Below, one piece after another: positions 1,633 to 43,385 of a stretch of DNA of 43,385 nucleotides. Under the pieces are notes generated by a model, which saw only the letters and a program-made list of their open reading frames with translations, did no database searches and was not told the DNA's origin. Origin of the DNA: a virus. The DNA lies in IMG/VR virus record IMGVR_UViG_3300045988_116410, positions 1 to 43,385 of that record. One strand, written 5' to 3'. How positions within the stretch are numbered: position 1 is the stretch's first letter; every line of letters begins with the position of its first letter. Both the position numbers and the translations under genes were made by a program.

Positions 1633-1717
1633 GCCCGTGTGGTGGAATTTGGTAGACACACCACACTCAAAATGTGGTGCTCTTTGGGGCGTGCGGGTTC
1701 GAGTCCCGCCACGGGTA
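1633..1717 (+). tRNA. tRNA-Leu(CAA), type II with long variable arm, no encoded CCA
   Basis: Hand fold: acceptor GCCCGTG/CACGGGT; D region TGGTGGAATTTGGTAGACAC; anticodon stem CCACA/TGTGG with loop CTCAAAA; long variable arm; T-arm GCGGG-TTCGAGT-CCCGC; discriminator A. The architecture parallels bacterial tRNA-Leu. Confidence 0.9.
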
Positions 1718-1750
1718 CTTGTGTGTTGATGGGTTGGGGGTGTCCTGGTT

Positions 1751-3451
1751 TTGGTCGATGTTGATAAGGCTGGGACACCCCCTGATGGTCCCTATGATGG
1801 TTTGTCTGATGAGGAGATTCTTGAGCGTTTCGCGCCGGTGCATTATGGGCCGACGTGGGAGCGCGGCGAGGATGGCCGGTTTGTGTTGCCTGAGCATACG
1901 TTGGGTTGGGAGATTGCTCGGTGGTGTTCGGATTATTTGGAGCCACTTGGTGCTGACCAGGAGGTGTTTGAGTTTACCTTGGAGCAGTTGCGTATCGTCC
2001 TGTGGTGGTATGCGGTTGATGATGAGGGTAAGTTCATTTACCGACGTCGCGGGGTGCTGCAGCGGATTAAGGGTTGGGGTAAGGACCCTTTGCTCGCGGT
2101 GTTGTGTTTGGTTGAGGCGTTTGGTCCGTCCCGGTTTGCTGGTTGGGGTTCTGATGGTGAGCCGGTTGGGCGTAGGTGTCCGCAGGCGTTGGTGCAGATT
2201 TTTGCGTTGAAGCAGGAACAAACGAGCAATACGTTCGATATGTTCCATGTGCTTGTTGGTGACAAGATGCGTGCGAAGTATGGCGCGGATGTGAAGCTGC
2301 AGATTGTGCGCGGTTGTAACAACACGGCGCGCATCGAGGTCAAGACGTCGGCGTTCCGTTCGACGGAGGGTAACCGTTGTACTTTCGCGTTGTTGAATGA
2401 GACGCAGCACTGGTTGCCGCAGAACAATGGACAGAAGTTGAAGAACACGGTTGAGGGTAATACGACGAAGATGAAGTCCCGTTACCTGGCTATTACGAAC
2501 GCGTATAAGCCTGGTGAGGGCAGCGTGGCTGAGGACGACCGTGAGGCGTATATGAAGTCGTTGGAGGGGTTGACGACGGAGACTGACGTGTTCTATGACT
2601 CGTTGGAGGCCCCGGATGATACGCCGTTGGATGAGCGCGTGTTTAAGGTGTTGTATAACGCGGTGCGTGGTGATTCGGTGTGGTGTGATGCTGATGAGGC
2701 GTGGCGGTCGGTGTTGAATCCGTCGCGTCCGACGTCGGAGTCTCGTCGCATGTATTTGAATCAGGTGTGGCAACCAGAGGGGAACCTGTTCTCATCGGCT
2801 GAGTGGAAGCGTATCGAACGTAAGGCGACGTTGGAGCCTGGTGACAGGATTGTGCTCGGGTTTGATGGCGGTAAGTCGGATGACTCTACGGCGCTTATCG
2901 CTATCCGCGTGTCGGATGGTTTGATGGTGCCGCTGCTGCTTGAGGAGAAGCCGTTGGACCTCGCGGGCGACTGGGAGGTTGACCGTGAGCGCGTGGACTC
3001 TATGGTCCACAGGTGCTTCCGTGACTACGACGTCGTTGGGTTCTACGCGGACGTCGCGTTGTGGGAGTCGTACATTCATGAGTGGACTTTGGATTATGGC
3101 GAGCGGCTTGTGGCTCGCGCGTCGGATAGGGGTCCGATTGCGTGGGATATGCGTGGTTCTCGTAAGCGGACGGCGGGCCTGCATGAGGCGTTTATGGCGG
3201 CGATTCTGGACGGTCGGGTGTCGCATGGTGGTTCGCGTGAGTTGGCGGCGTCGTTCCGTCGTCATGTGTTGAATGTGTTGCGTAAGGATACGCCGTATGG
3301 TGTGTCGTTTATGAAGGCTGGCCGTGAGTCGAAGAAGAAGATTGACATGTATGCGGCGGCGATGTTGGCGTTTGGTGCTTATCGGGATTATCAGACTGAG
3401 ATGGCGTCGAGGCCGGTTGCGAAGGCTGGGGGGTCGTTCTTCCGGTTCTGA
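1751..3451 (+). CDS. terminase large subunit
   Basis: 566 aa. Walker-A-like IKGWGKDPLLAV and the nuclease-domain signature GFDGGKSDDSTALIAIR. Followed by the portal gene. TTG start. Confidence 0.85.
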   Translation: MVDVDKAGTPPDGPYDGLSDEEILERFAPVHYGPTWERGEDGRFVLPEHTLGWEIARWCSDYLEPLGADQEVFEFTLEQLRIVLWWYAVDDEGKFIYRRRGVLQRIKGWGKDPLLAVLCLVEAFGPSRFAGWGSDGEPVGRRCPQALVQIFALKQEQTSNTFDMFHVLVGDKMRAKYGADVKLQIVRGCNNTARIEVKTSAFRSTEGNRCTFALLNETQHWLPQNNGQKLKNTVEGNTTKMKSRYLAITNAYKPGEGSVAEDDREAYMKSLEGLTTETDVFYDSLEAPDDTPLDERVFKVLYNAVRGDSVWCDADEAWRSVLNPSRPTSESRRMYLNQVWQPEGNLFSSAEWKRIERKATLEPGDRIVLGFDGGKSDDSTALIAIRVSDGLMVPLLLEEKPLDLAGDWEVDRERVDSMVHRCFRDYDVVGFYADVALWESYIHEWTLDYGERLVARASDRGPIAWDMRGSRKRTAGLHEAFMAAILDGRVSHGGSRELAASFRRHVLNVLRKDTPYGVSFMKAGRESKKKIDMYAAAMLAFGAYRDYQTEMASRPVAKAGGSFFRF

Positions 3452-30538: not shown

Positions 30539-31708
30539 TTACTGCCCGTTTTCCTGTTTGCCGTGATTGAACAGGTCAACAGGGCCGTCCGGCATTGCAC
30601 CGTCTAACTTCACGTAGTAGGCGATGGTGGTTTGCACGTTCGAGTGTGCGAGCCATGTTGCCGCCGCCCTTGCCCCGTAAGTGTCAAATACGATGCTGCC
30701 TACGGATTTGCGGATGCCGTGGATTGACAGGTCTGGCAGGTTGAGCTTGTTGAGGAGCAGTCGGCACTCTCGGTACATGGTTGCTTGCGCACGGTCGAAC
30801 AGGCGAGTATCCGGGGTTAGGTGCCGGGCTTTCTTGACCCTGGCGCACAGCCTGTCGGCCTGCCATTCGGGCAGGGCCTTGTCCGGGTACATACGGCGGG
30901 TCTTGCGGGACTCAACGCCGCGCACAGTCCCCGTATCGAGGTCGATGTTGCCCCAGGTGAGAGAGAACAGCTCCCCCGCGCGCAGGCCGAGGTGGGTTTG
31001 GAGGATCAGGGCGTCCACTGCGTCCTGTTCTGGGATGCGTTTTGCGTCGTACTGTTCGAGCGTTGTTATGAGGGCGCGCATTTCGGTGGGCGTGAGGATG
31101 CGGTCGCTGTCTAGTCTTACACGTACGGGGCTTGTGATGGGTGATTCTGTGGGCCGTGTGGACTGGAATGAGGAGAGGTTGACGGCGTCGGATGCGAGCT
31201 TGAGGGCGACGCCTAGCGCGGCTCGCAGGCTTGTTCTAGCGCGCCCGCTCCCGTGCTTGGCGACGTATCCGTCGTAGAGTGTGGTGAGTGCTGACACAGT
31301 GATGGCCTCGTCGAGGGGGAGGTGCCACCAGTGTGGGTTTTCTCGTTGACTGTCGGCTATGGCAGTCTCATAGTTGTGCCTGGTGCCCTCCGCGAGGGCT
31401 TGGTGTCGGCGTGAGCGCACGTACGCGTCCCAGACTTCCGTGGGGGTACTTTGTGGGGTGATGACGCCTGACGCGCGTTTAGCGTCGTCAATGTATTGTT
31501 TGGCTTGTTCCTCGCATTGTCGGATGGCTTGGCGTTTGCTGGTTGCGATGGTGCGGATGCGTTTGGGGGTGTCGCCTCGTTGTCCAATGAGGACGCTTGC
31601 CCTCCAGTGGGTGCCGTCCTGGTTGACGACCCACGCGCGGCCTTGTTTGGACACCTTGACAGTGGTGATGTTGCCTAGTTCGCCTGGTTGGAGTGCGCGT
31701 CGCGCCAT
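30539..31708 (-). CDS. int: tyrosine integrase
   Basis: Box I GLRAGELFSLTW, box II HGIRKSVGS, and WLAHSNVQTTIAYYVK (His...Tyr). ATG 31708 follows AGGAAGGG. The track ORF extends to 31948. Confidence 0.9.
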   Translation of the reverse strand: MARRALQPGELGNITTVKVSKQGRAWVVNQDGTHWRASVLIGQRGDTPKRIRTIATSKRQAIRQCEEQAKQYIDDAKRASGVITPQSTPTEVWDAYVRSRRHQALAEGTRHNYETAIADSQRENPHWWHLPLDEAITVSALTTLYDGYVAKHGSGRARTSLRAALGVALKLASDAVNLSSFQSTRPTESPITSPVRVRLDSDRILTPTEMRALITTLEQYDAKRIPEQDAVDALILQTHLGLRAGELFSLTWGNIDLDTGTVRGVESRKTRRMYPDKALPEWQADRLCARVKKARHLTPDTRLFDRAQATMYRECRLLLNKLNLPDLSIHGIRKSVGSIVFDTYGARAAATWLAHSNVQTTIAYYVKLDGAMPDGPVDLFNHGKQENGQ

Positions 31709-31748
31709 GATTGTGGACCCTTCCTGCGTGGGGGTGAGTGTTGGCCGC

Positions 31749-31757
31749 ATTGTAGCA
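31749..31757 (-). promoter_or_regulatory. extended -10 (TGCTACAAT) candidate promoter for int
   Basis: The minus strand reads TGcTACAAT about 40 nt upstream of the int ATG, just downstream of a hairpin plus U-run. Confidence 0.4.
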
Positions 31758-31780
31758 CGTGTTGCCTGTTTTTCGGGTAT

Positions 31781-31873
31781 AAAAAATGCGGCCCCCTCGT
31801 AAGGGAGAACCGTTACTCTCGCCACCCCCGTGTGGGGCGGGTTGAGTGCCGGTCTCCCTTGTGAGAGGGCCGC
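31781..31873 (-). terminator. large hairpin plus U-run separating the upstream operon from int
   Basis: Minus strand: GCGGCCCTCTC ... GAGGGGGCCGC followed by ATTTTTTAT, with internal sub-hairpins. Confidence 0.4.
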
Positions 31874-31884
31874 ATAGGGGCGGG

Positions 31885-32232
31885 CTAGAAACAGCCCGCA
31901 TACTTGAAAGTGACGTGGTTCGCCGCGTCTTGGATGAGGGTGCCCCACAGCAAGCCATGGGTGTATCCCCGGTCGATGTCGCTCACCCAGTCCCCCGCGC
32001 AGTCGTCTGCGAGTCGGTAGTAGCGGGATCCGTCTGACGCTTCAATGACTGTGCCTTCCGGGCAGTCAAGGTCGTCCGCGCACTGCAGCTCCCACCAGCA
32101 GTCGAGGCGGGTGATGGACTCAAGGCGCAGGACAGGCTTGGGCTTGAGCATGTCCTGTAGGGTTTCCAGCCGGGCCTTGATTTCGTTGCACGTGGCGATA
32201 GCCTCAGCGATAGCTGTGTTGGTTTCTGTCAT
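31885..32232 (-). CDS. paralog family member A (helical N-term plus GTVI..Y.R..W domain)
   Basis: 115 aa. CPEGTVIEASDGSRYYRLADDCAGDWVSD...VTFKYAG. Confidence 0.65.
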   Translation of the reverse strand: MTETNTAIAEAIATCNEIKARLETLQDMLKPKPVLRLESITRLDCWWELQCADDLDCPEGTVIEASDGSRYYRLADDCAGDWVSDIDRGYTHGLLWGTLIQDAANHVTFKYAGCF

Positions 32233-38483: not shown

Positions 38484-38723
38484 TTACGCGGCGAGGCCCC
38501 ACAGGCCGCCGTCGCACACCGCCAACGCCAACACGCGGCGGGCGGCAGTCTTGAAGCCCTCACGCGTAACCGGCACGCCCTGCAGAGGCATCCACCGTCC
38601 GGGCTTGTCCGGGTCAGGGCCGCTCATCCAGTCCCCAGCGTCGGCCCACACGCCGTCACGCATGGGGATGCAGGGCTGGTAGGGGGCGGGTGGAACCCAC
38701 CCGCGCGTCATGCTCGCATTCAT
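38484..38723 (-). CDS. hypothetical protein
   Basis: 79 aa, Trp/Pro-rich. Lies 51 nt downstream of TLE-1. Confidence 0.55.
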   Translation of the reverse strand: MNASMTRGWVPPAPYQPCIPMRDGVWADAGDWMSGPDPDKPGRWMPLQGVPVTREGFKTAARRVLALAVCDGGLWGLAA

Positions 38724-38774
38724 TTTTGTCTCACTCTCGTTTCATGTCAGGACAAACCACTTTGATTGTCCTCG

Positions 38775-38825
38775 CTCCCAGGGCGGGACTCGAACCCGCC
38801 ATTACCTCACCACTCAAGCCTGGGA
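38775..38825 (-). ncRNA. tRNA-like element TLE-1 (acceptor stem, D-like hairpin, T-arm; no anticodon arm)
   Basis: Minus strand: UCCCAGG CUU-GAGUGGU-GAG GUAAUG GCGGG-UUCGAGU-CCCGC CCUGGGA G. 7/7 acceptor pairs. The T-arm is identical to that of the phage tRNA-Leu. Confidence 0.7.
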
Positions 38826-38835
38826 AACCGGGAGG

Positions 38836-39186
38836 TCACTCCCAATCGTCAGGAGAATCCACGACCGCGCGCAGCTCGCCAGACTCAACACGCTCCGCAA
38901 GAGACGCCGTAACCGCGCGGGCCGTCAGCAGCGGGGAGAGGGCAAGCATTAGTTCCCCCGCCCCCAGCTTGTCGTCACCCTTACCGCCCTGCAGCCATTC
39001 CTCCGCAAGGGTTTCAACCGAATACGCCGTACCCTCGCGGTCAACAAAGTGCGCCCACTCAGGCGCGTTCACCGCGTCACGCAGCACGTACTCACATTCA
39101 TCCCACGACGCTTTCAGCGCCGTCACCTGTTCGGGCGTCATGTACTCGCCCGCCGCCATCGTCTTGCACCTGCTGGTATCCCTCAT
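38836..39186 (-). CDS. acidic hypothetical protein (paralog of 40540..40875)
   Basis: APEWAHFVDREGTAYS motif. Start chosen downstream of TLE-2 (ATG 39186 after AAGGTGG; ATG 39159 is an alternative). The track ORF runs through TLE-2. Confidence 0.55.
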   Translation of the reverse strand: MRDTSRCKTMAAGEYMTPEQVTALKASWDECEYVLRDAVNAPEWAHFVDREGTAYSVETLAEEWLQGGKGDDKLGAGELMLALSPLLTARAVTASLAERVESGELRAVVDSPDDWE

Positions 39187-39247
39187 AGGGCACCACCTTT
39201 CACACTCAGTTTCAATACGGCCCGCAACCACCATGGCTGCAGGCCCG

Positions 39248-39300
39248 TTCCCTGGCCCGGACTCGAACCGGCACAACGCTCACCATTCAAGCGCCAAGGA
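39248..39300 (-). ncRNA. tRNA-like element TLE-2
   Basis: UCCUUGG CGCUU-GAAUGGU-GAGCG UUGU GCCGG-UUCGAGU-CCGGG CCAGGGA A. The acceptor has 7 pairs (one G-U). The T-stem has 4 bp plus a G.G mismatch. Confidence 0.6.
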
Positions 39301-39307
39301 CACCCCG

Positions 39308-39985
39308 TCATCCGACAATAACCACTGCCCCGCCCGTCACAGGCGTGTCACCCTTGAAGTCATGCACAACCACGGTCGGCACGCCCTCAACACTCGGCCT
39401 GTCCGCATCTTCCATCACGTACACGGTCGCACGCTCGTGCGCGTACACCTCGCCACCCTCGCAGTAGACAACCGACTGGCCGTAGGCCGTCACGTCAACA
39501 TCAGCGCCCATTTCGACAAACGAGCGTTGATAGGCCGTCACGGATGCGTGGCCCCATGCAACCACGTGGGACGTGGCCCGCGCCGTCACCTCCGCACTGT
39601 CATACGCGAACAGGGGGCAGAGCGAATGCGCTTCCACGGTCGCCATATCCCACGCCTGGCCGCGCGCATAGTACCCACACTTGCCGGTAGAACTGTCACG
39701 CCAGTTAACCTGGGCAAAGTCTGTCGCATGCACAACCGCGTCATCCTGCGCTTCAACCATGCTATGACCGCGCGCCGTCAACTGTGCCGTGCCCGATACA
39801 ACCACGCGCGATTCGCCCCGCGCTTCAATCGAGTGCCCGCGCGAGTCCGTCACGAAAATGTAGATCGGAACGTATTTGCCTGGGTCTGAGTGAATCTCAA
39901 TCACCATGTCATCAGACGGGGCCGCTTCCAGCGCCGCGTCCAATTCTTCCTGATTCGTCACGCGAACCACCTTGTCGCCGCTCAT
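39308..39985 (-). CDS. repeat-containing (beta-solenoid-like) hypothetical protein
   Basis: 225 aa with recurring A.G.S.V.A / V.A.G.A.V units, e.g. IEARGESRVVVSGTAQLTARGHSMVEAQDDAVVHA. Confidence 0.6.
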   Translation of the reverse strand: MSGDKVVRVTNQEELDAALEAAPSDDMVIEIHSDPGKYVPIYIFVTDSRGHSIEARGESRVVVSGTAQLTARGHSMVEAQDDAVVHATDFAQVNWRDSSTGKCGYYARGQAWDMATVEAHSLCPLFAYDSAEVTARATSHVVAWGHASVTAYQRSFVEMGADVDVTAYGQSVVYCEGGEVYAHERATVYVMEDADRPSVEGVPTVVVHDFKGDTPVTGGAVVIVG

Positions 39986-40038
39986 TTCCTCAGTCTCCTA
40001 TTCCATGTATCCGAGGCGACCGCCTTGGTCGCCCGTCG

Positions 40039-40094
40039 CTCCCTGTGCCCGGATCGAACAGGCCCTATCTCACCCCCACCATTGGGGACAGGGA
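40039..40094 (-). ncRNA. tRNA-like element TLE-3
   Basis: UCCCUGU CCCC-AAUGGU-GGGG GUGAGAUAGG GCCUG-UUCGAUC-CGGGC ACAGGGA G. 7/7 acceptor pairs. The T-stem has one G-U pair. Confidence 0.65.
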
Positions 40095-40140
40095 TAGCCA
40101 GCGTGTCACGCGCAAAGTCAGTCGGCATTCATCTCCGCTT

Positions 40141-40416
40141 CTAGCTCCTCAGCCTCTCTAAAAGCCTCCTCCCACACGGCCACCGCATCGGCCACCGCCT
40201 TAGCGACCGCCTCATCCGGCGTACGCTCAGCCGGGCCACGCACGCCCGCATCACAAACGCAACCAGCGTCCGATACGAATAGACGCGATACTCATCCCCA
40301 CCCTCAGGGCGCGGGATGCGAACCACATTGAAGTTGGTCGCCACGGGGATAATGTCACCCGCGAAACCATGCCGAACAGCGTACGCCGCCGAATCAATGT
40401 CATGAAGAACAGTCAT
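40141..40416 (-). CDS. hypothetical protein, 3' part probably out of frame
   Basis: The N-terminal ~55 aa look protein-like. The tail is Arg-rich (RLSVRRMRRSLRRWPMRWPCGRR). The -1 frame gives an acidic helical tail ending at 40118. Confidence 0.45.
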   Translation of the reverse strand: MTVLHDIDSAAYAVRHGFAGDIIPVATNFNVVRIPRPEGGDEYRVYSYRTLVAFVMRACVARLSVRRMRRSLRRWPMRWPCGRRLLERLRS

Positions 40417-40469
40417 GACGAAACCTCTTTCTCACATTCTCAAGTAAGGCAACAACCATTGTGGCCCCG

Positions 40470-40530
40470 CCCCTTGCCCAGGATTCGAACCCAGGACCCC
40501 CGCACGGGGGCGCAACCGACTTGCCAAGGG
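40470..40530 (-). ncRNA. tRNA-like element TLE-4 (has an extra 5-bp/tetraloop hairpin in place of an anticodon arm)
   Basis: CCCUUGG CAA-GUCGG-UUGC G CCCCC-GUGC-GGGGG UC CUGGG-UUCGAAU-CCUGG GCAAGGG G. 6 of 7 acceptor pairs. The T-stem has two G-U pairs. Confidence 0.55.
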
Positions 40531-40539
40531 TGAGAACCA

Positions 40540-40875
40540 CTAACGGCCCTCAATAGGACGCAAATCGCCATCCTGAATGCGCTCGTCGATCCAATCCAGC
40601 ATTCCGCAGCGGAAACCAATCGAATCCATCTCGCGAACTATCGCGCCCGCGTCAAACTCGAATCCGGCAACAAGCACCGTCCCGCACACGTCGGTAAGCA
40701 TGCTTTCGTAGGCGTCATTCATCTCACCTTCGGTAAACAGCTCACCCGCCGCGTCCACGTATTCCGCCCAATCGGGCACGCCGCCAAGCTCCGAACGCGC
40801 GAAAGACTCTCGGTCATCCCACGCATCCTGCATCGCTTCCAGCGCATCGCCCGTGACCTCAGTCATGAAACCCAT
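40540..40875 (-). CDS. very acidic hypothetical protein (paralog of 38836..39186)
   Basis: VPDWAEYVDAAGELFT motif. RBS AGAAAGAGG. Confidence 0.6.
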   Translation of the reverse strand: MGFMTEVTGDALEAMQDAWDDRESFARSELGGVPDWAEYVDAAGELFTEGEMNDAYESMLTDVCGTVLVAGFEFDAGAIVREMDSIGFRCGMLDWIDERIQDGDLRPIEGR

Positions 40876-40935
40876 CGTCTTGCCTCTTTCTCAATTGATC
40901 TGTGATAGGACACGCACACGCCATGCGCGCCCCCG

Positions 40936-40986
40936 CTCCTCGGGCGGGACCCGAACCCGCCTAAAACTCACCAATCAAGCCGAGGA
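40936..40986 (-). ncRNA. tRNA-like element TLE-5
   Basis: UCCUCGG CUU-GAUUGGU-GAG UUUUAG GCGGG-UUCGGGU-CCCGC CCGAGGA G. 7/7 acceptor pairs. Confidence 0.7.
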
Positions 40987-40995
40987 ACCACGCCG

Positions 40996-41250
40996 CTAAG
41001 ACGCGGCGTAAAAATCCCAATCGCGCCGATAATCCGTAGACCGCGCATCCGTATACGCATCCCACGCGCCAACGTCCCCACGCATCCCACGCAAAGACGC
41101 CCGCGTAGCGCGCCTAACGCGCTTACCCACAAGCCGACGCGTACCCGTATTCCAACGCGCAAAGTCCTTATCAATCGCCACGCCCTCCGCACACCTGCGG
41201 ATACGCGCCGCCTTGACTCGCCACGGGGCCGTCTTGTCCGTATGTGCCAC
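40996..41250 (-). CDS. basic hypothetical protein
   Basis: GTG 41250 lies 8 nt after GGAGG. The ORF opens at TTG 41265. Confidence 0.5.
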   Translation of the reverse strand: MAHTDKTAPWRVKAARIRRCAEGVAIDKDFARWNTGTRRLVGKRVRRATRASLRGMRGDVGAWDAYTDARSTDYRRDWDFYAAS

Positions 41251-41294
41251 CTCGCACACCTCCAATCATGCGCAACGCCAATCGTCACGCCCTG

Positions 41295-41344
41295 CGCGCG
41301 GGACGGGAATTGAACCCGCCATTACCTCACCACTAAGCCCGCGC
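41295..41344 (-). ncRNA. tRNA-like element TLE-6
   Basis: GCGCGGG CUU-AGUGGU-GAG GUAAUG GCGGG-UUCAAUU-CCCGU CCCGCGC G. 7/7 acceptor pairs. Shares 23 identical nt with TLE-1 but has a completely different acceptor stem. Confidence 0.7.
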
Positions 41345-41373
41345 CGCCCCTTAGTCAGGGGCCAAAGACTCGC

Positions 41374-41895
41374 CTAAGCCGCCGAAACCGAGGTCGGGGG
41401 AACCAGGATGGAAACCCACTCATCCGACGCCACCGCGTCCAAACCGCGCTCATCAAGAGCAAGCGCCCCCTTGGGAAACTCACCATGAGGGAAGTCAAGA
41501 CCCCACATAACCTGCCACCCAAGAGCACGCGCCGCCCGCTCAATCGCATCATGGAAAGCGTTGAAAACCATCTCCCCAATCGCATCAAGCCGGGCGTTAC
41601 CCTGCGCAGAACGCCGATACTCAGGGGCCGGATCATCAACCCACCAATTAGACGGGTCAAACTCGGGACGCCCACACTCATCCCACGCACGAAACACGCC
41701 GCGCCACGTGTGCGTATCCCAATACATCTGAAGAACGCACTCATCCCAATCAGCCGTGCCGGGCATCGTCGCATCGTCATAGAACCAAGCGACCAACTCG
41801 GGAAGCGTCCCATAAGTAAGGAAGCCCCTAACAGCCACATCCGCACAACGCGCCGCCGCCGCCAAACCCTCAACCAAAGTAGCCAATGTAAACAC
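41374..41895 (-). CDS. hypothetical protein
   Basis: Trp/Asp-rich, protein-like, about 170 aa. Start is GTG 41895 or, by analogy with gene 40416, TTG 41886 (8 nt after GAGAGG). Confidence 0.6.
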   Translation of the reverse strand: MFTLATLVEGLAAAARCADVAVRGFLTYGTLPELVAWFYDDATMPGTADWDECVLQMYWDTHTWRGVFRAWDECGRPEFDPSNWWVDDPAPEYRRSAQGNARLDAIGEMVFNAFHDAIERAARALGWQVMWGLDFPHGEFPKGALALDERGLDAVASDEWVSILVPPTSVSAA

Positions 41896-41964
41896 CTCTC
41901 ACATTCTCAACAGGCCCCCACCCTGAGGACCAGAATCAGCGCCGCCCACCATTAGGCGCGCCCG

Positions 41965-42040
41965 TAGACGGTGCGAGAATCGAACCCGCCGCCCGCGCCA
42001 CGTCTGCTAAACGCCCGCGCGAACGCTCACCAAAGCCGCC
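41965..42040 (-). ncRNA. degenerate tRNA-like element TLE-7
   Basis: Good T-arm GCGGG-UUCGAUU-CUCGC (41973-41989). Only 5 acceptor pairs (AGACG/CGUCU). The CUU-UGGU-GAG module is displaced about 20 nt to the 5' side. Contains a 9-nt direct repeat GCGCGGGCG. Confidence 0.3.
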
Positions 42041-42325
42041 CTAGTCCACTAACGACGCGCACCACAATTAACCGACCGGGAAACTCAAGGACGGTCCTAA
42101 CAACAGCAGTAAAGCGATAGGCCACGGCCCGCGCCCCTACAGACGGGGGCCGCCGCTCAAAACCTCGGAACCACTGCGATAGGCGAGAACGCGCCAAGGC
42201 GAAAAAACCACTCTGTAATTCACAACCAAGCCCCTCTCAAAGAGGGAAGATCAAACACACACCCAATCCAACGAAACGCCAAGGCCGGGGGCCTCTTTGC
42301 TCGCTCTCTCGGGGGCGATGAAATA

Positions 42326-42354: not shown

Positions 42355-42719
42355 ACTAAACGCCGCATCGTGAGACGTCAAACGGTCACACTCTGAGATA
42401 GGCGCAGAAACACACCGCAAACAGTTCGCCAGCATTACACGCCGGCCGCCAACTGTCAAACCGCAATTAGGGGCCATCGCGGGGGCCATTAGTTAAATGA
42501 GACGCTAATCACACTACCCGTGAATTAGTCCTACCCAAACACGCACGAGCGCGCGCGTAACACATGGCGACGTTATTGTCAATTCAATTAGCGGAATAGT
42601 GGCACAATAGACAAATAGAATTGCGCATACCCTATGTGTGCGAATTGCGCAAGCACATTAACCGAATAGCAACATAACAATTCAATAGCAAATTGACTTC
42701 AATTACAAAAACAATTCTT

Positions 42720-42777
42720 TGCGATAAATAAAGCAATTAAACGAGCAATTAAATAGCCAATCAACCAAGCGATTAAA
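42720..42777. repeat. iteron-like repeats AGC(A/G)AT(T)AAA at 12/12/24-bp spacing
   Basis: GCGATAAATA 42721, AGCAATTAAA 42732, AGCAATTAAA 42744, AGCGATTAAA 42768, inside the AT-rich zone 42540-42850. Confidence 0.6.
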
Positions 42778-43189
42778 TACAAGCCAAGCGCAGCGACTAG
42801 ACAGCGCGGGAATTGAACAAAGAATTGCAGACGAATAGGGGGCTATAACCCCGCAAGAATTGCCCCTAGATACCACACGGTCATAGCAAAAAATATCCGC
42901 GACGGGTTACAAGCTTTCCATGTCAACCAATTCGCCACGCCGCGCGCCGCTTGACTGCTAATCGTAACACGCCCGTCCCCGGACTCGCAACCCCGGTCGC
43001 AGCCCATGCCCCCGGCTCTTGGTGAGGGGGTTTCTGGCGAATGGCTTGTTTCTGCGGATTTGGACGCGATGCCATGATCGCCCACGCGTGACATGTGTCT
43101 CATTATTGAAAAATGTGCGCGGTGACCAGGGTTCCGAAAACAGACTATATAGTGAGAGGGTAAAAGCCCTTGGGGGGTAGGGGGGCAAG

Positions 43190-43208
43190 TATATATATAA
43201 ATATATAT
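43190..43208. repeat. pure A/T alternating tract TATATATATAAATATATAT
   Basis: Read directly. Immediately followed by CTTAAGTCTTAAG. Confidence 0.8.
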
Positions 43209-43298
43209 CTTAAGTCTTAAGCTAATGTTTAAAGCTCTCTATCTCAAGTCCTCTAGTTCACGACTTATGGTTTATAGCTCATGGTTTCTATCTTATAG

Positions 43299-43385
43299 TT
43301 CTGTCGTTGCTTTAAGTCTTAAGACGTAATTAGTATTGATTCTAATTCTGTCGTTGCTTTAAGTCTTAAGACGTAATTAGTATTG
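43299..43385. repeat. tandem repeat, period 47 bp: two 40-nt units (43299-43338, 43346-43385), each containing the palindrome GTCTTAAGAC
   Basis: Unit TTCTGTCGTTGCTTTAAGTCTTAAGACGTAATTAGTATTG occurs twice. A partial third copy (TGTCGTTGC) lies at 62-70 across the junction. The related CTTAAGTCTTAAG lies at 43209-43221. Confidence 0.85.

What the first reader, a model, noticed from the sequence alone, without database searches (positions are those of the whole stretch)
38775..42040. tRNA-like elements lacking an anticodon arm punctuate every intergenic gap of a leftward phage operon
Every gap between the minus-strand genes from 42.0 to 38.7 kb contains a 50-61 nt element. There are six clear copies and one degenerate copy.

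Read on the minus strand, each element forms:
- a 7-bp acceptor-type stem, closed directly onto
- a 5-bp stem with a 7-nt loop carrying tRNA T-loop sequence (UUCGAGU, UUCGAGU, UUCGAUC, UUCGAAU, UUCGGGU, UUCAAUU, UUCGAUU), followed by
- one unpaired purine at the discriminator position, then always a C, with no encoded CCA.

Only 18-29 nt lie between the 5' acceptor strand and the T-arm. This segment is a small hairpin with a GG-containing loop (for example CUU-GAGUGGU-GAG, CGCUU-GAAUGGU-GAGCG, CCCC-AAUGGU-GGGG, GCAA-GUCGG-UUGC), which is D-arm-like. No 7-nt anticodon loop is present.

The elements begin 7-29 nt after the upstream stop codon. TLE-3 is 46 nt after the stop, or 23 nt if the frameshifted reading of gene 40141 is correct. 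They end 44-61 nt before the next start codon.

They are therefore not decoding tRNAs. They do retain exactly the parts (the acceptor/T minihelix and the D/T elbow) that RNase P, RNase Z and the CCA-adding enzyme are known to recognise.

Inference: these are a mitochondrion-style tRNA-punctuation system for processing a polycistronic early mRNA. Alternatives are mRNA end-stabilisers or decoys for host tRNA-binding factors. I know of no described phage system like this.
Basis: partly seen in the sequence, partly recalled or inferred. Interest (0 to 1): 0.92.

Follow-up and report, generated by a model that had tools for sequence, protein, structure and literature searches.

The report
Anticodon-less tRNA mimics between phage genes
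Each gap between the first genes of this phage's early operon holds a conserved ~52-nt RNA shaped like the top half of a tRNA without an anticodon arm. It is most likely a signal for host tRNA-processing enzymes to cut the long transcript into stable single-gene messages; I found no phage report of this, and the cutting itself is untested.

Summary
Seven tRNA-like elements (TLEs) lie on the minus strand between 38.77 and 42.04 kb, one per intergenic gap.
- Five have a 7-bp acceptor stem, a 3-5-bp D-like hairpin with a GG loop, and a 5-bp T arm.
- One has a mini extra hairpin and 6+6-bp stems.
- The "degenerate" copy is a 78-nt version with a long extra arm.

ARAGORN and Rfam call none of them. 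A covariance model found 34 copies in this window and six related viral contigs. In these, 98% of cells pair and 12 of 15 pairs show compensatory changes. An Actinomyces MAG contig carries seven more.

New anatomy across 61 contexts:
- purine73-C74 with no encoded CCA;
- a GGUU leader;
- a 7-12-bp hairpin starting 2-4 nt after C74 (p=3e-24).

Best reading (~0.5): host RNase P and RNase Z (or RNase E) excise the TLEs, and the hairpin caps the new mRNA 5' end.

Rivals are trans-acting tRNA-mimic decoys, uncleaved stabilisers, and recombination sites.

Unrelated viral contigs carry similar arrays. Rfam and the searched literature describe nothing like it. All function is inferred.

The parts
41964..42041 (-). 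E7: 78-nt tRNA-like element at the head of the operon. It has a 6-7-bp acceptor stem with a C.A mismatch, a CUU-UGGU-GAG hairpin, a long extra arm (loop UUAGCAG), a T arm GCGGG-UUCGAUU-CUCGC, and then A-C.
   Evidence: RNAalifold of 5 orthologues; 8 pairs with compensatory change; ARAGORN calls the L074 orthologue tRNA-Ala(agc); none is called in the window.
41938..41962 (-). Hairpin B after E7 (loop AAUGG).
   Evidence: MFE -14.7
41374..41886 (-). g2, 170-aa acidic ORFan; first gene after E7.
41346..41362 (-). Hairpin A before E6 (CCCCU-GACUA-AGGGG). The UGA in its loop is not the gene's stop codon.
41294..41344 (-). E6: 51-nt TLE, GCGCGGG/CCCGCGC acceptor, T-loop UUCAAUU, then G-C.
   Evidence: (62.9 bits, E=7e-15)
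41270..41290 (-). Hairpin B after E6, 8 bp, loop AUUGG.
40996..41250 (-). g3, 84 aa, Arg-rich, pI 11.
40935..40986 (-). E5: 52-nt TLE, UCCUCGG/CCGAGGA, T-loop UUCGGGU, then G-C.
   Evidence: 69.8 bits
40907..40933 (-). Hairpin B after E5, 11 bp, loop GGCGU. Orthologues keep the stem through several compensatory changes.
40540..40875 (-). g4, 111 aa, paralogue of g7 (family A).
40469..40530 (-). E4: 62-nt cloverleaf-like TLE. It has a 6-bp acceptor stem, a 4-bp D arm (GCAA-GUCGG-UUGC), a mini hairpin CCCCC-GUGC-GGGGG, and a 6-bp T stem, followed by G-C.
   Evidence: weak Rfam mascRNA hit of 18.5 bits against a 42.5 gathering score; R2 gives 17.6 bits.
40446..40468 (-). Hairpin B after E4.
40141..40416 (-). 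g5, 91 aa; the C-terminus looks frameshifted.
40038..40094 (-). E3: 57-nt TLE, UCCCUGU/ACAGGGA, D-like hairpin CCCC-AAUGGU-GGGG, T-loop UUCGAUC, then G-C.
   Evidence: 58.5 bits
40012..40035 (-). Hairpin B after E3 (GGCGACC-AAGGC-GGUCGCC).
39308..39985 (-). g6, 225 aa, PHROG 15773 (unknown function).
39247..39300 (-). E2: 54-nt TLE, UCCUUGG/CCAGGGA, 5-bp D-like stem, T-loop UUCGAGU with a G.G mismatch at the outer T-stem pair, then A-C.
   Evidence: 57.1 bits
39219..39245 (-). Hairpin B after E2, 12 bp, loop UGG.
   Evidence: MFE -23.2
38836..39186 (-). g7, 116 aa, paralogue of g4.
38826..38847 (-). Hairpin A before E1 (GGGAG-UGAC-CUCCC, holding the stop codon) followed by the GGUU leader.
38774..38825 (-). 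E1: 52-nt TLE, UCCCAGG/CCUGGGA. Its T arm is identical to that of the phage's real tRNA-Leu. It is followed by G-C.
   Evidence: 74.8 bits, E=4e-18
38749..38772 (-). Hairpin B after E1.
38484..38723 (-). g8, the last gene preceded by a TLE. Downstream genes are tightly packed or overlapping and have no TLEs.

Best explanation
The elements are cis-encoded tRNA top-half mimics that serve as RNA-processing signals in the promoter-proximal, cassette-like part of the leftward early operon.

**Shown**
- Each element is a conserved, sense-strand RNA fold made of an acceptor stem, a T arm and a GG-loop hairpin.
- The acceptor and T stems form a constant 12-bp stack.
- The tRNA elbow nucleotides are kept.
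- A purine73-C74 tail follows, without an encoded CCA.
- A 7-12-bp hairpin starts 2-4 nt after C74.

**Inferred**
1. The operon is transcribed as one RNA.
2. Host RNase P cuts at TLE position 1.
3. A second cut falls after N73. RNase Z makes it, or in an actinobacterial host RNase E, which cleaves 5' of C.
4. The upstream mRNA ends in hairpin A plus a short GGUU tail.
5. The downstream mRNA begins with 2-4 free nt and hairpin B. This 5' stem-loop shields a monophosphorylated end from RNase E and RNase J.
6. The released 50-60-nt TLE is probably CCA-tailed.

The net effect is that each accessory early gene becomes an insulated, separately stabilised message.
For: **Structure and covariation**
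- 34 copies (30 distinct) from this window and six related viral contigs were aligned.
- 98.2% of cells pair, and 12 of 15 pairs carry double changes.
- The covariation score is 0.588, against 0.189 in shuffles (0 of 500 reach it) and 0.09-0.16 for slid partners.
- RNAalifold returns the same fold.
- U.G is the commonest D-stem closing pair (22 of 30), so only the gene-sense strand folds this way.

**Placement**
- There is one element per gap, always co-oriented with the genes.
- The elements are absent from the rest of the genome.

**Processing determinants in 61 distinct contexts**
- N73 is a purine in 60 of 61.
- C74 is present in 58 of 61.
- C75 is present in only 4 of 61.
- U is at -2 in 43 of 61 and at -1 in 30 of 61.
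- The phage's own tRNA-Leu also ends A-C-U-U.
- C74 is present in 84% of 437 full-size tRNA-like hits.

**Hairpin B**
- It starts 2-4 nt after C74 in 52 of 61 contexts.
- Mean MFE is -14.0 against -6.9 kcal/mol for random windows (p=3e-24).
- Orthologous stems differ by compensatory changes.

**What is and is not under constraint**
- E4 keeps the 12-bp stack as 6+6.
- The anticodon-arm position is free to be absent, mini or long. This fits enzymes that read only the acceptor/T/elbow.

**No competing signals in the gaps**
- The scan reports no U-tract terminator inside any TLE gap.
- Its only promoter-like site in a gap (38750-38722) overlaps g8's start.

**Precedents**
- Mycobacterial RNase E cuts single-stranded RNA 5' of C (PMC10641625).
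Against: - There is no RNA-end, RNA-seq or enzymatic evidence of any kind.
- The upstream hairpin A is weak and irregular: mean -9.0 against -6.9 kcal/mol, and its tail length is no better than control.
- In this lineage U1-A72 (81%), C2-G71 (95%) and G73 (78%) are far more conserved than shape-reading enzymes require, and they differ from real tRNAs, where G1 is 77%. This hints at a sequence-specific partner.
- Hairpin B loops are enriched for D-loop-like AAGGC/UGG/GGCGU, which a plain 5' cap does not need.
- In L016 the gaps are too short to hold flanking hairpins.
- In L283 the mini elements form a gene-free tandem array. Punctuation therefore cannot be the only role of this class.
- A conserved C74 could weaken RNase Z cleavage. 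This point rests on my own knowledge of the CCA anti-determinant and was not tested.
Confidence: 0.5

Rival explanations
1. The main product is the small RNA itself. The TLEs are excised by the same host enzymes, CCA-tailed, and act in trans. They could be decoys or sponges for factors that read only the acceptor stem, T arm and 3' tail, such as tRNA-tail-cleaving or tail-modifying immune effectors. They could also titrate tRNA-maturation enzymes. On this reading, placement between genes is just the way they are expressed.
For: - L283 (GC 29%) has at least 13 mini elements in tandem, 60-160 nt apart, with no ORFs between them and no ARAGORN calls.
- Cas12a3 recognises the acceptor stem, T arm and CCA tail, and it still cleaves truncated tRNAs (PMC12851939).
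- The acceptor-end sequence (U1-A72, C2-G71, G73) is strongly conserved in this lineage, which suggests a specific binding partner.
Against: - A strict one-per-gap layout, a fixed 43-60-nt distance to the next start codon and a tightly spaced downstream hairpin are not needed for a decoy.
- No target is identified.
- Acceptor positions 4-7 vary freely.
Confidence: 0.2
2. The TLEs are cis-acting structures that are not cleaved. Together with hairpin B they would act as compact roadblocks. They could insulate cistrons from 5'-to-3' RNase E scanning or RNase J, from 3' exonucleases, from Rho, or from ribosomes running out of the upstream gene. Alternatively, hairpin A or B could act as a U-tract-less actinobacterial terminator.
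For: - Stable hairpins flank the TLEs.
- Multi-frame stop codons (TGAcTGAcTGA) often precede the TLE.
- No U-tract terminators lie in the gaps.
- U-tract-less terminators are reported in actinophage early regions (my own knowledge, not checked here).
Against: - A generic roadblock does not need the T-loop UUCRA, the G53-C61 pair, the D-loop GG, a 12-bp stack or R73-C74. All of these are conserved.
- The precise 2-4-nt spacing of hairpin B after C74 points to a defined end at that position.
Confidence: 0.12
3. The elements work at the DNA level as recombination modules. The TLEs would be the joints at which early-gene cassettes are gained, lost and shuffled. This could happen by homologous recombination between repeats, or through a tRNA-targeting integrase in an integron-like manner.
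For: - Cassette content and order between TLEs differ among the window, L001, L005, L006, L074 and L151. Junctions fall at TLEs.
- L003:2829-2880 is a chimeric TLE whose 5' and 3' acceptor strands come from different types.
- A tyrosine integrase is encoded at 30539-31948.
Against: - Long-range acceptor covariation, G.U pairs and tRNA tertiary nucleotides are selected on one strand. This is RNA-level selection.
- The copies are 60-85% identical, so they are not homogenised.
- The chimera's junction lies near the 5' acceptor/D boundary, not at a fixed core.
- Recombination at repeats is an expected by-product of any repeat family.
Confidence: 0.1
4. The elements are decaying tRNA pseudogenes or selfish tRNA-derived repeats with no function.
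For: - E7 and E4 look like intermediate stages of anticodon-arm loss.
- Truncated tRNA-likes also occur inside phage tRNA clusters.
Against: - 98% of pairs are maintained through many compensatory changes across paralogues and across genomes from independent samples.
- Placement and flanks are conserved.
Confidence: 0.03

Closest known systems
Mitochondrial tRNA punctuation (Ojala/Attardi model; own knowledge; reviews listed)
   Same: tRNA-shaped units sit between cistrons of a polycistronic transcript. RNase P and RNase Z excise them and so define the mRNA ends.
   Different: In mitochondria the punctuating units are working tRNAs with anticodons. Here six of seven lack an anticodon arm and cannot decode. 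This system also adds a flanking hairpin, sits in a phage, and would rely on bacterial host enzymes.
MALAT1 mascRNA / MEN-beta tRNA-like (Rfam RF01684)
   Same: It is a non-decoding tRNA-like of about 60 nt with a shortened anticodon arm. RNase P forms the upstream RNA's 3' end, which an adjacent structure protects. RNase Z and the CCA-adding enzyme finish the small RNA. E4 aligns to this model end to end.
   Different: The score is 18.5 bits against a gathering score of 42.5, so E4 is not a member. mascRNA is eukaryotic, nuclear and present as a single copy at a 3' end. It is not an array between ORFs.
t-elements of plant mitochondria and the tRNA-like element upstream of Haloferax 5S rRNA (own knowledge; the term appears in PMC8392254 and PMC7521656)
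   Same: These are non-tRNA structures that mimic the acceptor/T region and are used by RNase P or tRNase Z to make the ends of neighbouring RNAs.
   Different: They are sporadic single elements in organelles or archaea. No sequence family exists to test membership, and none is reported in a phage operon.
Bacterial Y RNA YrlA tRNA-like domain (PMC4201824)
   Same: It has acceptor-like, D and T arms. [quoted passage not shown] Copies are also found in phages.
   Different: YrlA is embedded in a Ro60-binding Y-RNA stem and encoded next to a Ro60 gene. No Rfam Y-RNA match was found here, and the ends are closed by the acceptor stem itself.
Phage T7 RNase III processing sites (own knowledge)
   Same: A phage uses a host RNA-processing enzyme at structured intergenic sites to cut polycistronic mRNAs into stable units.
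   Different: T7 sites are long double-stranded hairpins recognised by RNase III. Here the signal is a tRNA mimic, and the hairpins are only 7-12 bp.
Engineered tRNA-gRNA arrays and ribozyme/Csy4 insulators (own knowledge)
   Same: The design logic is the same: a processing unit between cistrons decouples the expression of neighbouring parts.
   Different: Those are synthetic. This would be a natural counterpart.
SAS/ESAS repeats of Cluster K mycobacteriophages (own knowledge)
   Same: Conserved motifs plus an inverted repeat recur just upstream of start codons in actinophage operons.
   Different: The SAS consensus GGGATAGGAGCCC is not enriched here: 9 matches against 10.7 expected. Those repeats have no tRNA-like fold.

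Membership tests
Canonical tRNA (ARAGORN; Rfam RF00005) | Detected by tRNA finders or reaches Rfam's gathering score | tested here: not met
   ARAGORN calls only tRNA-Leu 1633-1718. Rfam at gathering threshold finds tRNA only at 1633-1717 in the window and at one site in L005, and none in L074, L151, L016, L051 or L010.
Canonical tRNA (ARAGORN; Rfam RF00005) | 7-bp acceptor stem stacked on a 5-bp T stem with a 7-nt UUCRANY loop and a G53-C61 pair | tested here: met
   G53-C61 is invariant in 34 of 34 copies. E4 has 6+6 bp.
Canonical tRNA (ARAGORN; Rfam RF00005) | Anticodon arm (5-bp stem, 7-nt loop) | tested here: not met
   Only 18-28 nt separate the acceptor 5' strand from the T stem in E1-E6. 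E4 has a 4-nt-loop hairpin. Only E7 has a 7-nt loop.
Canonical tRNA (ARAGORN; Rfam RF00005) | D arm with G18-G19, plus U8/N9 connectors | tested here: inconclusive
   The GG loop is present in all 34 aligned copies, read by eye from the alignment. The stem is only 3-5 bp and abuts the acceptor stem with no U8/N9.
mascRNA-menRNA (Rfam RF01684) | Score at or above the gathering score of 42.5 bits | tested here: not met
   E4 scores 18.5 bits, E=4.4. The other copies give no hit.
tmRNA tRNA-like domain | tmRNA call with a tag ORF; alanine identity pair G3:U70 | tested here: not met
   ARAGORN finds no tmRNA. Pair 3:70 is C-G in 22 of 30 copies and never G-U. The beta_tmRNA hit scores 9.6 bits against 84.
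YrlA / bacterial Y RNA | tRNA-like domain embedded in a Ro60-binding stem, encoded next to a Ro60 (TROVE) gene | tested here: inconclusive
   No Rfam family matches at E<=10 apart from those listed. The elements are closed by their own acceptor stem. Pfam on the 18 right-arm ORFs tested found no TROVE domain. Not every window ORF was scanned.
tRNA-punctuation / t-element type processing signal | RNA ends generated at position 1 and after N73 by RNase P and RNase Z | not testable with these tools
   This needs end-mapping or enzyme assays. Only the sequence determinants could be checked: the 12-bp stack, the elbow, R73-C74 and U-rich -1/-2 positions.
Viral 3' tRNA-like structures (TYMV type) | 3'-terminal position, pseudoknotted acceptor stem, genomic CCA, aminoacylation | tested here: not met
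   The elements are internal to a DNA-phage operon, have a plain acceptor helix, and encode no CCA. No Rfam TLS hit was found.
Integron attC cassette sites | Imperfect palindrome with R/L boxes and extrahelical bases, plus an adjacent IntI and attI | tested here: inconclusive
   The three-way-junction tRNA fold differs from an attC hairpin. The only integrase lies about 7 kb away at 30539-31948 and matches only the generic Phage_integrase family. Cassette shuffling at TLEs is seen.
Cluster K SAS/ESAS | 13-bp SAS consensus close to start codons | tested here: not met
   9 matches with up to 3 mismatches against 10.7 expected. Only one match (39992-40004) lies in the region.

The most novel reading that the evidence does not exclude
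Mini tRNA mimics of 41-62 nt (acceptor stem, T arm and a GG-loop hairpin, with no anticodon arm) may be a widespread, unrecognised class of phage RNA with a double role. Host RNase P and RNase Z would cut them out of early transcripts, which would insulate and stabilise each accessory-gene message. The released CCA-tailed minihelices would then act in trans, for example as decoys for immune effectors or toxins that attack the acceptor end of tRNAs. The same repeats would also serve as the joints at which early-gene cassettes are exchanged between phages.
Probability: 0.15. Interest if true: 0.95.

Novelty: new variant of a known kind. Interest (0 to 1): 0.82.

Why it matters
**If the elements are processed as proposed**
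- Phages would have a tRNA-punctuation system of their own. Until now this strategy has been tied to mitochondria and a few eukaryotic and archaeal RNAs.
- It would add a third host-enzyme route for cutting phage operon transcripts, alongside RNase III and RNase E.
- It would explain how small accessory early genes can be swapped between phages and still be expressed predictably.
- It would give annotators a new feature class that tRNA finders and Rfam miss.
- It would supply compact natural insulator parts for actinobacterial synthetic biology.

**If the excised minihelices also act in trans**
- The finding would connect to the growing field of tRNA-targeted antiphage immunity.

**Testability**
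- The prediction is sharp. RNA ends should fall at defined nucleotides, and non-templated CCA should appear where the genome reads C-G or C-U.
- Existing methods can test this.

Tried and rejected
**Searches for a cultured relative: none found**
- megablast and blastn of the region against 50,697 GenBank phages gave no match.
- The same was true for L016 and L051.

**Host identification**
- A TerL-based scan of genome contigs confirmed nothing.
- The host clue came only from a DNA-pattern scan. That scan mostly returned unrelated single hits, plus one Actinomyces MAG contig, L151.

**Known RNA families**
- An Rfam E-value scan gave only sub-threshold hits: CRISPR-DR23, Plastid-ycf2 on the wrong strand, tRNA-Sec, mascRNA and beta_tmRNA.

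**Function of the flanked genes**
- Pfam and PHROGs gave no informative match for them.

**Other repeat candidates**
- The TTGAGAATGTGAGA motif before two start codons is not a family feature: 6 matches against 2.4 expected, and only 2 exact.
- The SAS motif is absent.

**Promoters and terminators**
- The scan found nothing convincing in the gaps.
- A TTGACG-N17-TAGTTT candidate near 42381-42353 matches only 3 of 6 in the -10 box, so I do not claim it.

**Transcript ends**
- Looking up g6 in public assemblies returned two short DNA contigs and no information on transcript ends.

**Technical and negative points**
- MAFFT alignment of the raw copies misaligned the stems. I therefore seeded the model from E1 and E5 only.
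- Single-sequence MFE z-scores are unremarkable.
- A tRNA-Asn-like origin for the UCC...GGA-G acceptor end is a recollection I could not test.
- Six literature searches found no description of such phage elements.

Full report
**What the window is**

The 43.4-kb sequence is a temperate siphovirus-type actinophage genome.
- Its large terminase (1751-3451) is about 50% identical to those of Streptomyces, Mycobacterium and Gordonia phages.
- A tyrosine integrase lies at 30539-31948 on the minus strand.
- Plus-strand genes fill the left 30 kb. Minus-strand genes run from about 42 kb down to 30.5 kb, and GC skew follows this layout.
- GenBank phages hold no relative at the DNA level.
- Close relatives do occur in several independent metagenomic samples:
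  - IMG/VR contigs L001-L006, L074 and L106;
  - ENA and Logan contigs L247 and L248;
  - a contig of an "uncultured Actinomyces sp." gut MAG, L151.
- The sequence is therefore not an assembly artefact, and the host is probably Actinomyces or a near relative.

**Checking the observation**

- The coordinates are E1 38774-38825, E2 39247-39300, E3 40038-40094, E4 40469-40530, E5 40935-40986, E6 41294-41344 and E7 41964-42041.
- The 18-28-nt spacer, the purine at position 73, the following C and the lack of CCA are all as described.
- The descriptor gives 6 hits in the window and none in the reversed sequence.
- An unfiltered scan of both strands with a family covariance model finds five copies at 57-75 bits, E4 at 17.6 bits and the T arm of E7. 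Otherwise it finds only the T arm of the genuine tRNA-Leu.
- ARAGORN and Rfam's tRNA model call only that tRNA-Leu.
- Single-sequence folding energies are ordinary (z = -1.0 to -2.1). The minimum-energy fold misses the tRNA-like shape for E2 and E3. The case therefore rests on comparison between copies.

1. E7 is a 78-nt element. It has the same CUU-UGGU-GAG hairpin and T arm as the others, plus a long extra arm with a UUAGCAG loop. Five orthologues support this fold, and ARAGORN calls the L074 orthologue tRNA-Ala(agc).
2. E4 is a small cloverleaf with a 6-bp acceptor stem, a 6-bp T stem, a 4-bp D arm and a 4-nt-loop hairpin. Rfam's mascRNA model aligns to it end to end, but far below threshold.
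3. E2's T stem carries a G.G mismatch.

**Comparative evidence for an RNA structure**

I seeded a covariance model from E1 and E5.
- It retrieved 34 copies, 30 of them distinct, from the window and six related viral contigs. Each contig carries 1-10 copies, all on one strand.
- On that alignment 98.2% of cells form standard pairs, and 12 of 15 pairs show changes on both sides.
- The covariation score is 0.588. Shuffles give 0.189 (none of 500 reach the observed value), and partners slid by 1-3 columns give 0.09-0.16.
- Every acceptor pair covaries, as do four of five T-stem pairs.
- G53-C61, the UUCRA of the T loop and the GG of the D-like loop are kept.
- RNAalifold predicts the same structure on its own.
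- The commonest closing pair of the D-like stem is U.G, which would be a C.A mismatch on the other strand. The fold therefore belongs to the strand that is sense for the genes.
- The anticodon-arm position may be empty, hold a mini hairpin, or hold a long arm.
- The acceptor-plus-T stack stays at 12 bp, even in E4.
- Selection thus acts on the parts of a tRNA that RNase P, RNase Z and the CCA-adding enzyme recognise (established knowledge).

**New anatomy around the elements**

I examined 61 distinct contexts from the window, eight related viral contigs and the Actinomyces MAG contig.
- Position 73 is a purine in 60 of 61.
- Position 74 is C in 58 of 61.
- Position 75 is C in only 4 of 61.
- The four nucleotides before position 1 tend to read GGUU, with U at -2 in 43 and at -1 in 30.
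- The phage's real tRNA-Leu also ends A-C-U-U.
- C74 occurs in 84% of 437 full-size tRNA-like hits in the fetched loci, even where CCA is not encoded. The TLEs therefore share the 3' context of real tRNA genes.
- A 7-12-bp hairpin ("hairpin B") follows almost every element:
  - It begins 2-4 nt after C74 in 52 of 61 cases.
  - The 34 nt after C74 fold to a mean of -14.0 kcal/mol, against -6.9 for random same-strand windows (p = 3e-24).
  - Orthologous stems differ by compensatory changes, for example GGCGACC/GGUCGCC against GGCAACC/GGUUGCC.
- A weaker hairpin ("hairpin A") often precedes the GGUU leader and often holds a stop codon, sometimes with stops in all three frames.
- The distance from the TLE to the next start codon is 43-60 nt in the window.
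- The scan finds no U-tract terminator in the gaps. Its one promoter-like site in a gap (38750-38722) overlaps g8's start.
- After g8 the genes are tightly packed and the elements stop.

**Most likely mechanism**

The operon is probably transcribed as one RNA.
1. RNase P would cut at TLE position 1.
2. A second cut would fall between N73 and C74. RNase Z would make it, or RNase E. In mycobacteria RNase E cleaves single-stranded RNA immediately 5' of cytidines (PMC10641625).
3. The downstream message would then start with 2-4 free nucleotides and a stem-loop. From established work on 5'-terminal stem-loops in E. coli (own knowledge), this is the geometry that shields a monophosphorylated 5' end from RNase E and RNase J.
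4. The upstream message would end in hairpin A plus a short tail.
5. The freed 50-60-nt RNA would be a substrate for CCA addition.

A direct precedent exists in an actinobacterium. The tRNA-like domain of M. smegmatis YrlA has acceptor, D and T arms. [quoted passage not shown]

I put about 0.5 on this reading. Every enzymatic step is inferred, and only the sequence features are shown.

**What does not fit neatly**

- In this lineage U1-A72 (81%), C2-G71 (95%) and G73 (78%) are much more conserved than a shape-reading enzyme needs. They are also unlike real tRNAs, where G1 is 77%.
- Hairpin B loops are enriched for D-loop-like AAGGC, UGG and GGCGU.
- Hairpin A is irregular.

These points leave room for a sequence-specific partner.

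**Rival readings**

1. *Trans-acting decoy.* It gains weight from contig L283 (GC 29%). There, at least 13 mini elements of the same design stand in tandem, 60-160 nt apart, without genes. It also gains weight from Cas12a3, an immune nuclease that reads the acceptor stem, T arm and CCA tail and still cuts truncated tRNAs (PMC12851939).
2. *Pure roadblock or terminator.* It does not explain conservation of tRNA tertiary nucleotides.
3. *DNA-level cassette joints.*
   - In favour: gene content between TLEs is shuffled among relatives, L151 joins an E6-type TLE directly to g4's leader, and L003 carries a chimeric TLE.
   - Against: strand-specific covariation shows RNA-level selection, so recombination looks like a by-product.
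4. *Decaying pseudogenes.* The compensatory changes exclude this.

**Breadth**

Two looser DNA patterns pulled in other viral contigs that carry co-oriented mini elements in intergenic gaps:
- L016: GC 39%, nine copies of 41-48 nt;
- L010: GC 41%, four copies;
- L051: GC 58%, four to five copies;
- L030, L018 and L300.

Across the 249 sequences held at that point (the window plus all loci), the descriptor gave 169 hits against 23 in reversed controls. Thirty-one loci had two or more hits, against none in controls. The sample is biased by the search patterns, so this shows existence, not frequency.

**Comparison with what is known**

Functionally the system resembles several known cases:
- mitochondrial tRNA punctuation;
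- the MALAT1 mascRNA;
- plant-mitochondrial and haloarchaeal t-elements;
- phage T7's use of RNase III sites;
- engineered tRNA-gRNA arrays.

It is not a member of the tRNA, mascRNA, tmRNA or viral TLS families by Rfam score. It lacks the YrlA context, and it lacks the SAS motif of Cluster K phages. Rfam 15 has no matching family. Six full-text searches found no description of such phage elements. The library is incomplete, so prior description cannot be ruled out.

**Verdict**

I rate it a new variant of a known kind (tRNA-like processing signals), in a new setting and with a new architecture. Interest is 0.82.

Noticed in passing
L283:7380-9040 (+), IMGVR_UViG_3300035517_000474: This is a tandem array of at least 13 mini tRNA-like elements (41-55 nt) spaced 60-160 nt apart with no ORFs between them. 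Each is preceded by a conserved TTGTGAAAT/CTGTGAAG motif, which could be a GUGA-loop hairpin or a -35-like box. ARAGORN calls none, and Pfam finds nothing in the 10 neighbouring ORFs tested.
   Followed up: partly
L016:700-9240 (+), IMGVR_UViG_3300019892_000002: This GC-39% contig has nine 41-48-nt mini tRNA-like elements. They almost fill the gaps between co-oriented ORFs, which include an HATPase_c_3 protein and a SprT-like protein. It has no relative among GenBank phages.
   Followed up: partly
L003:2829-2880 (+): This is a chimeric TLE. Its 5' acceptor strand, TCCCTGA, belongs to one TLE type. The rest, ...CCCGCGA, belongs to another, so the acceptor stem no longer pairs. It looks like a recent recombination inside the repeats. 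ARAGORN mis-calls an extended version (2802-2880) as tRNA-Gly(ccc).
   Followed up: partly
window 38836-39186 and 40540-40875 (-): g7 and g4 are paralogues (family A). Related phages carry two to four copies of this family. The set and order of genes between TLEs differs from phage to phage.
   Followed up: partly
window 40996-41250 (-): g3 encodes an 84-aa, arginine-rich protein (pI 11) inside the TLE-punctuated block. It is a possible RNA-binding protein. It is missing from the corresponding position in L151.
   Followed up: no
window 40141-40416 (-): g5's C-terminal third is an odd Arg/Trp-rich tail, and its stop lies 46 nt before E3. The stop lies 20-26 nt before the equivalent TLE in relatives.
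   Followed up: partly
window 1633-1718 (+): The one genuine tRNA, Leu(CAA), sits 33 nt upstream of the large terminase gene and ends A-C-U-U without an encoded CCA. Its T arm is identical to that of E1. It may itself punctuate the late operon.
   Followed up: partly
window 42500-43385: The right end is AT-rich and apparently non-coding. It finishes with two copies of a 46-nt direct repeat (43293-43338 and 43340-43385) and contains a C-rich tract near 43180. It could be the genome end, a cos region or an origin.
   Followed up: no
L031, L046, L056, L061 (tRNA clusters): Large phage tRNA clusters contain conserved ~55-nt tRNA-likes. These keep an acceptor stem, an anticodon-type hairpin and a T arm but lack a D arm (for example GTAGCAT-gacggtctccaaaaccgtc-...-ATGCTGT). 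This is a different kind of truncation from the one studied here.
   Followed up: no
window, whole: GC skew is unusually strong (about +0.3 on the plus strand across the left arm) and reverses in the leftward right arm. G is strongly preferred on the coding strand.
   Followed up: no
TLE family, acceptor end: In this lineage U1-A72 (81%), C2-G71 (95%) and G73 (78%) are strongly conserved, while positions 4-7 vary freely. Real tRNAs in the same data start with G in 77% of cases. The reason is unexplained. A tRNA-Asn/Gln-like origin or a specific binding partner are untested leads.
   Followed up: partly
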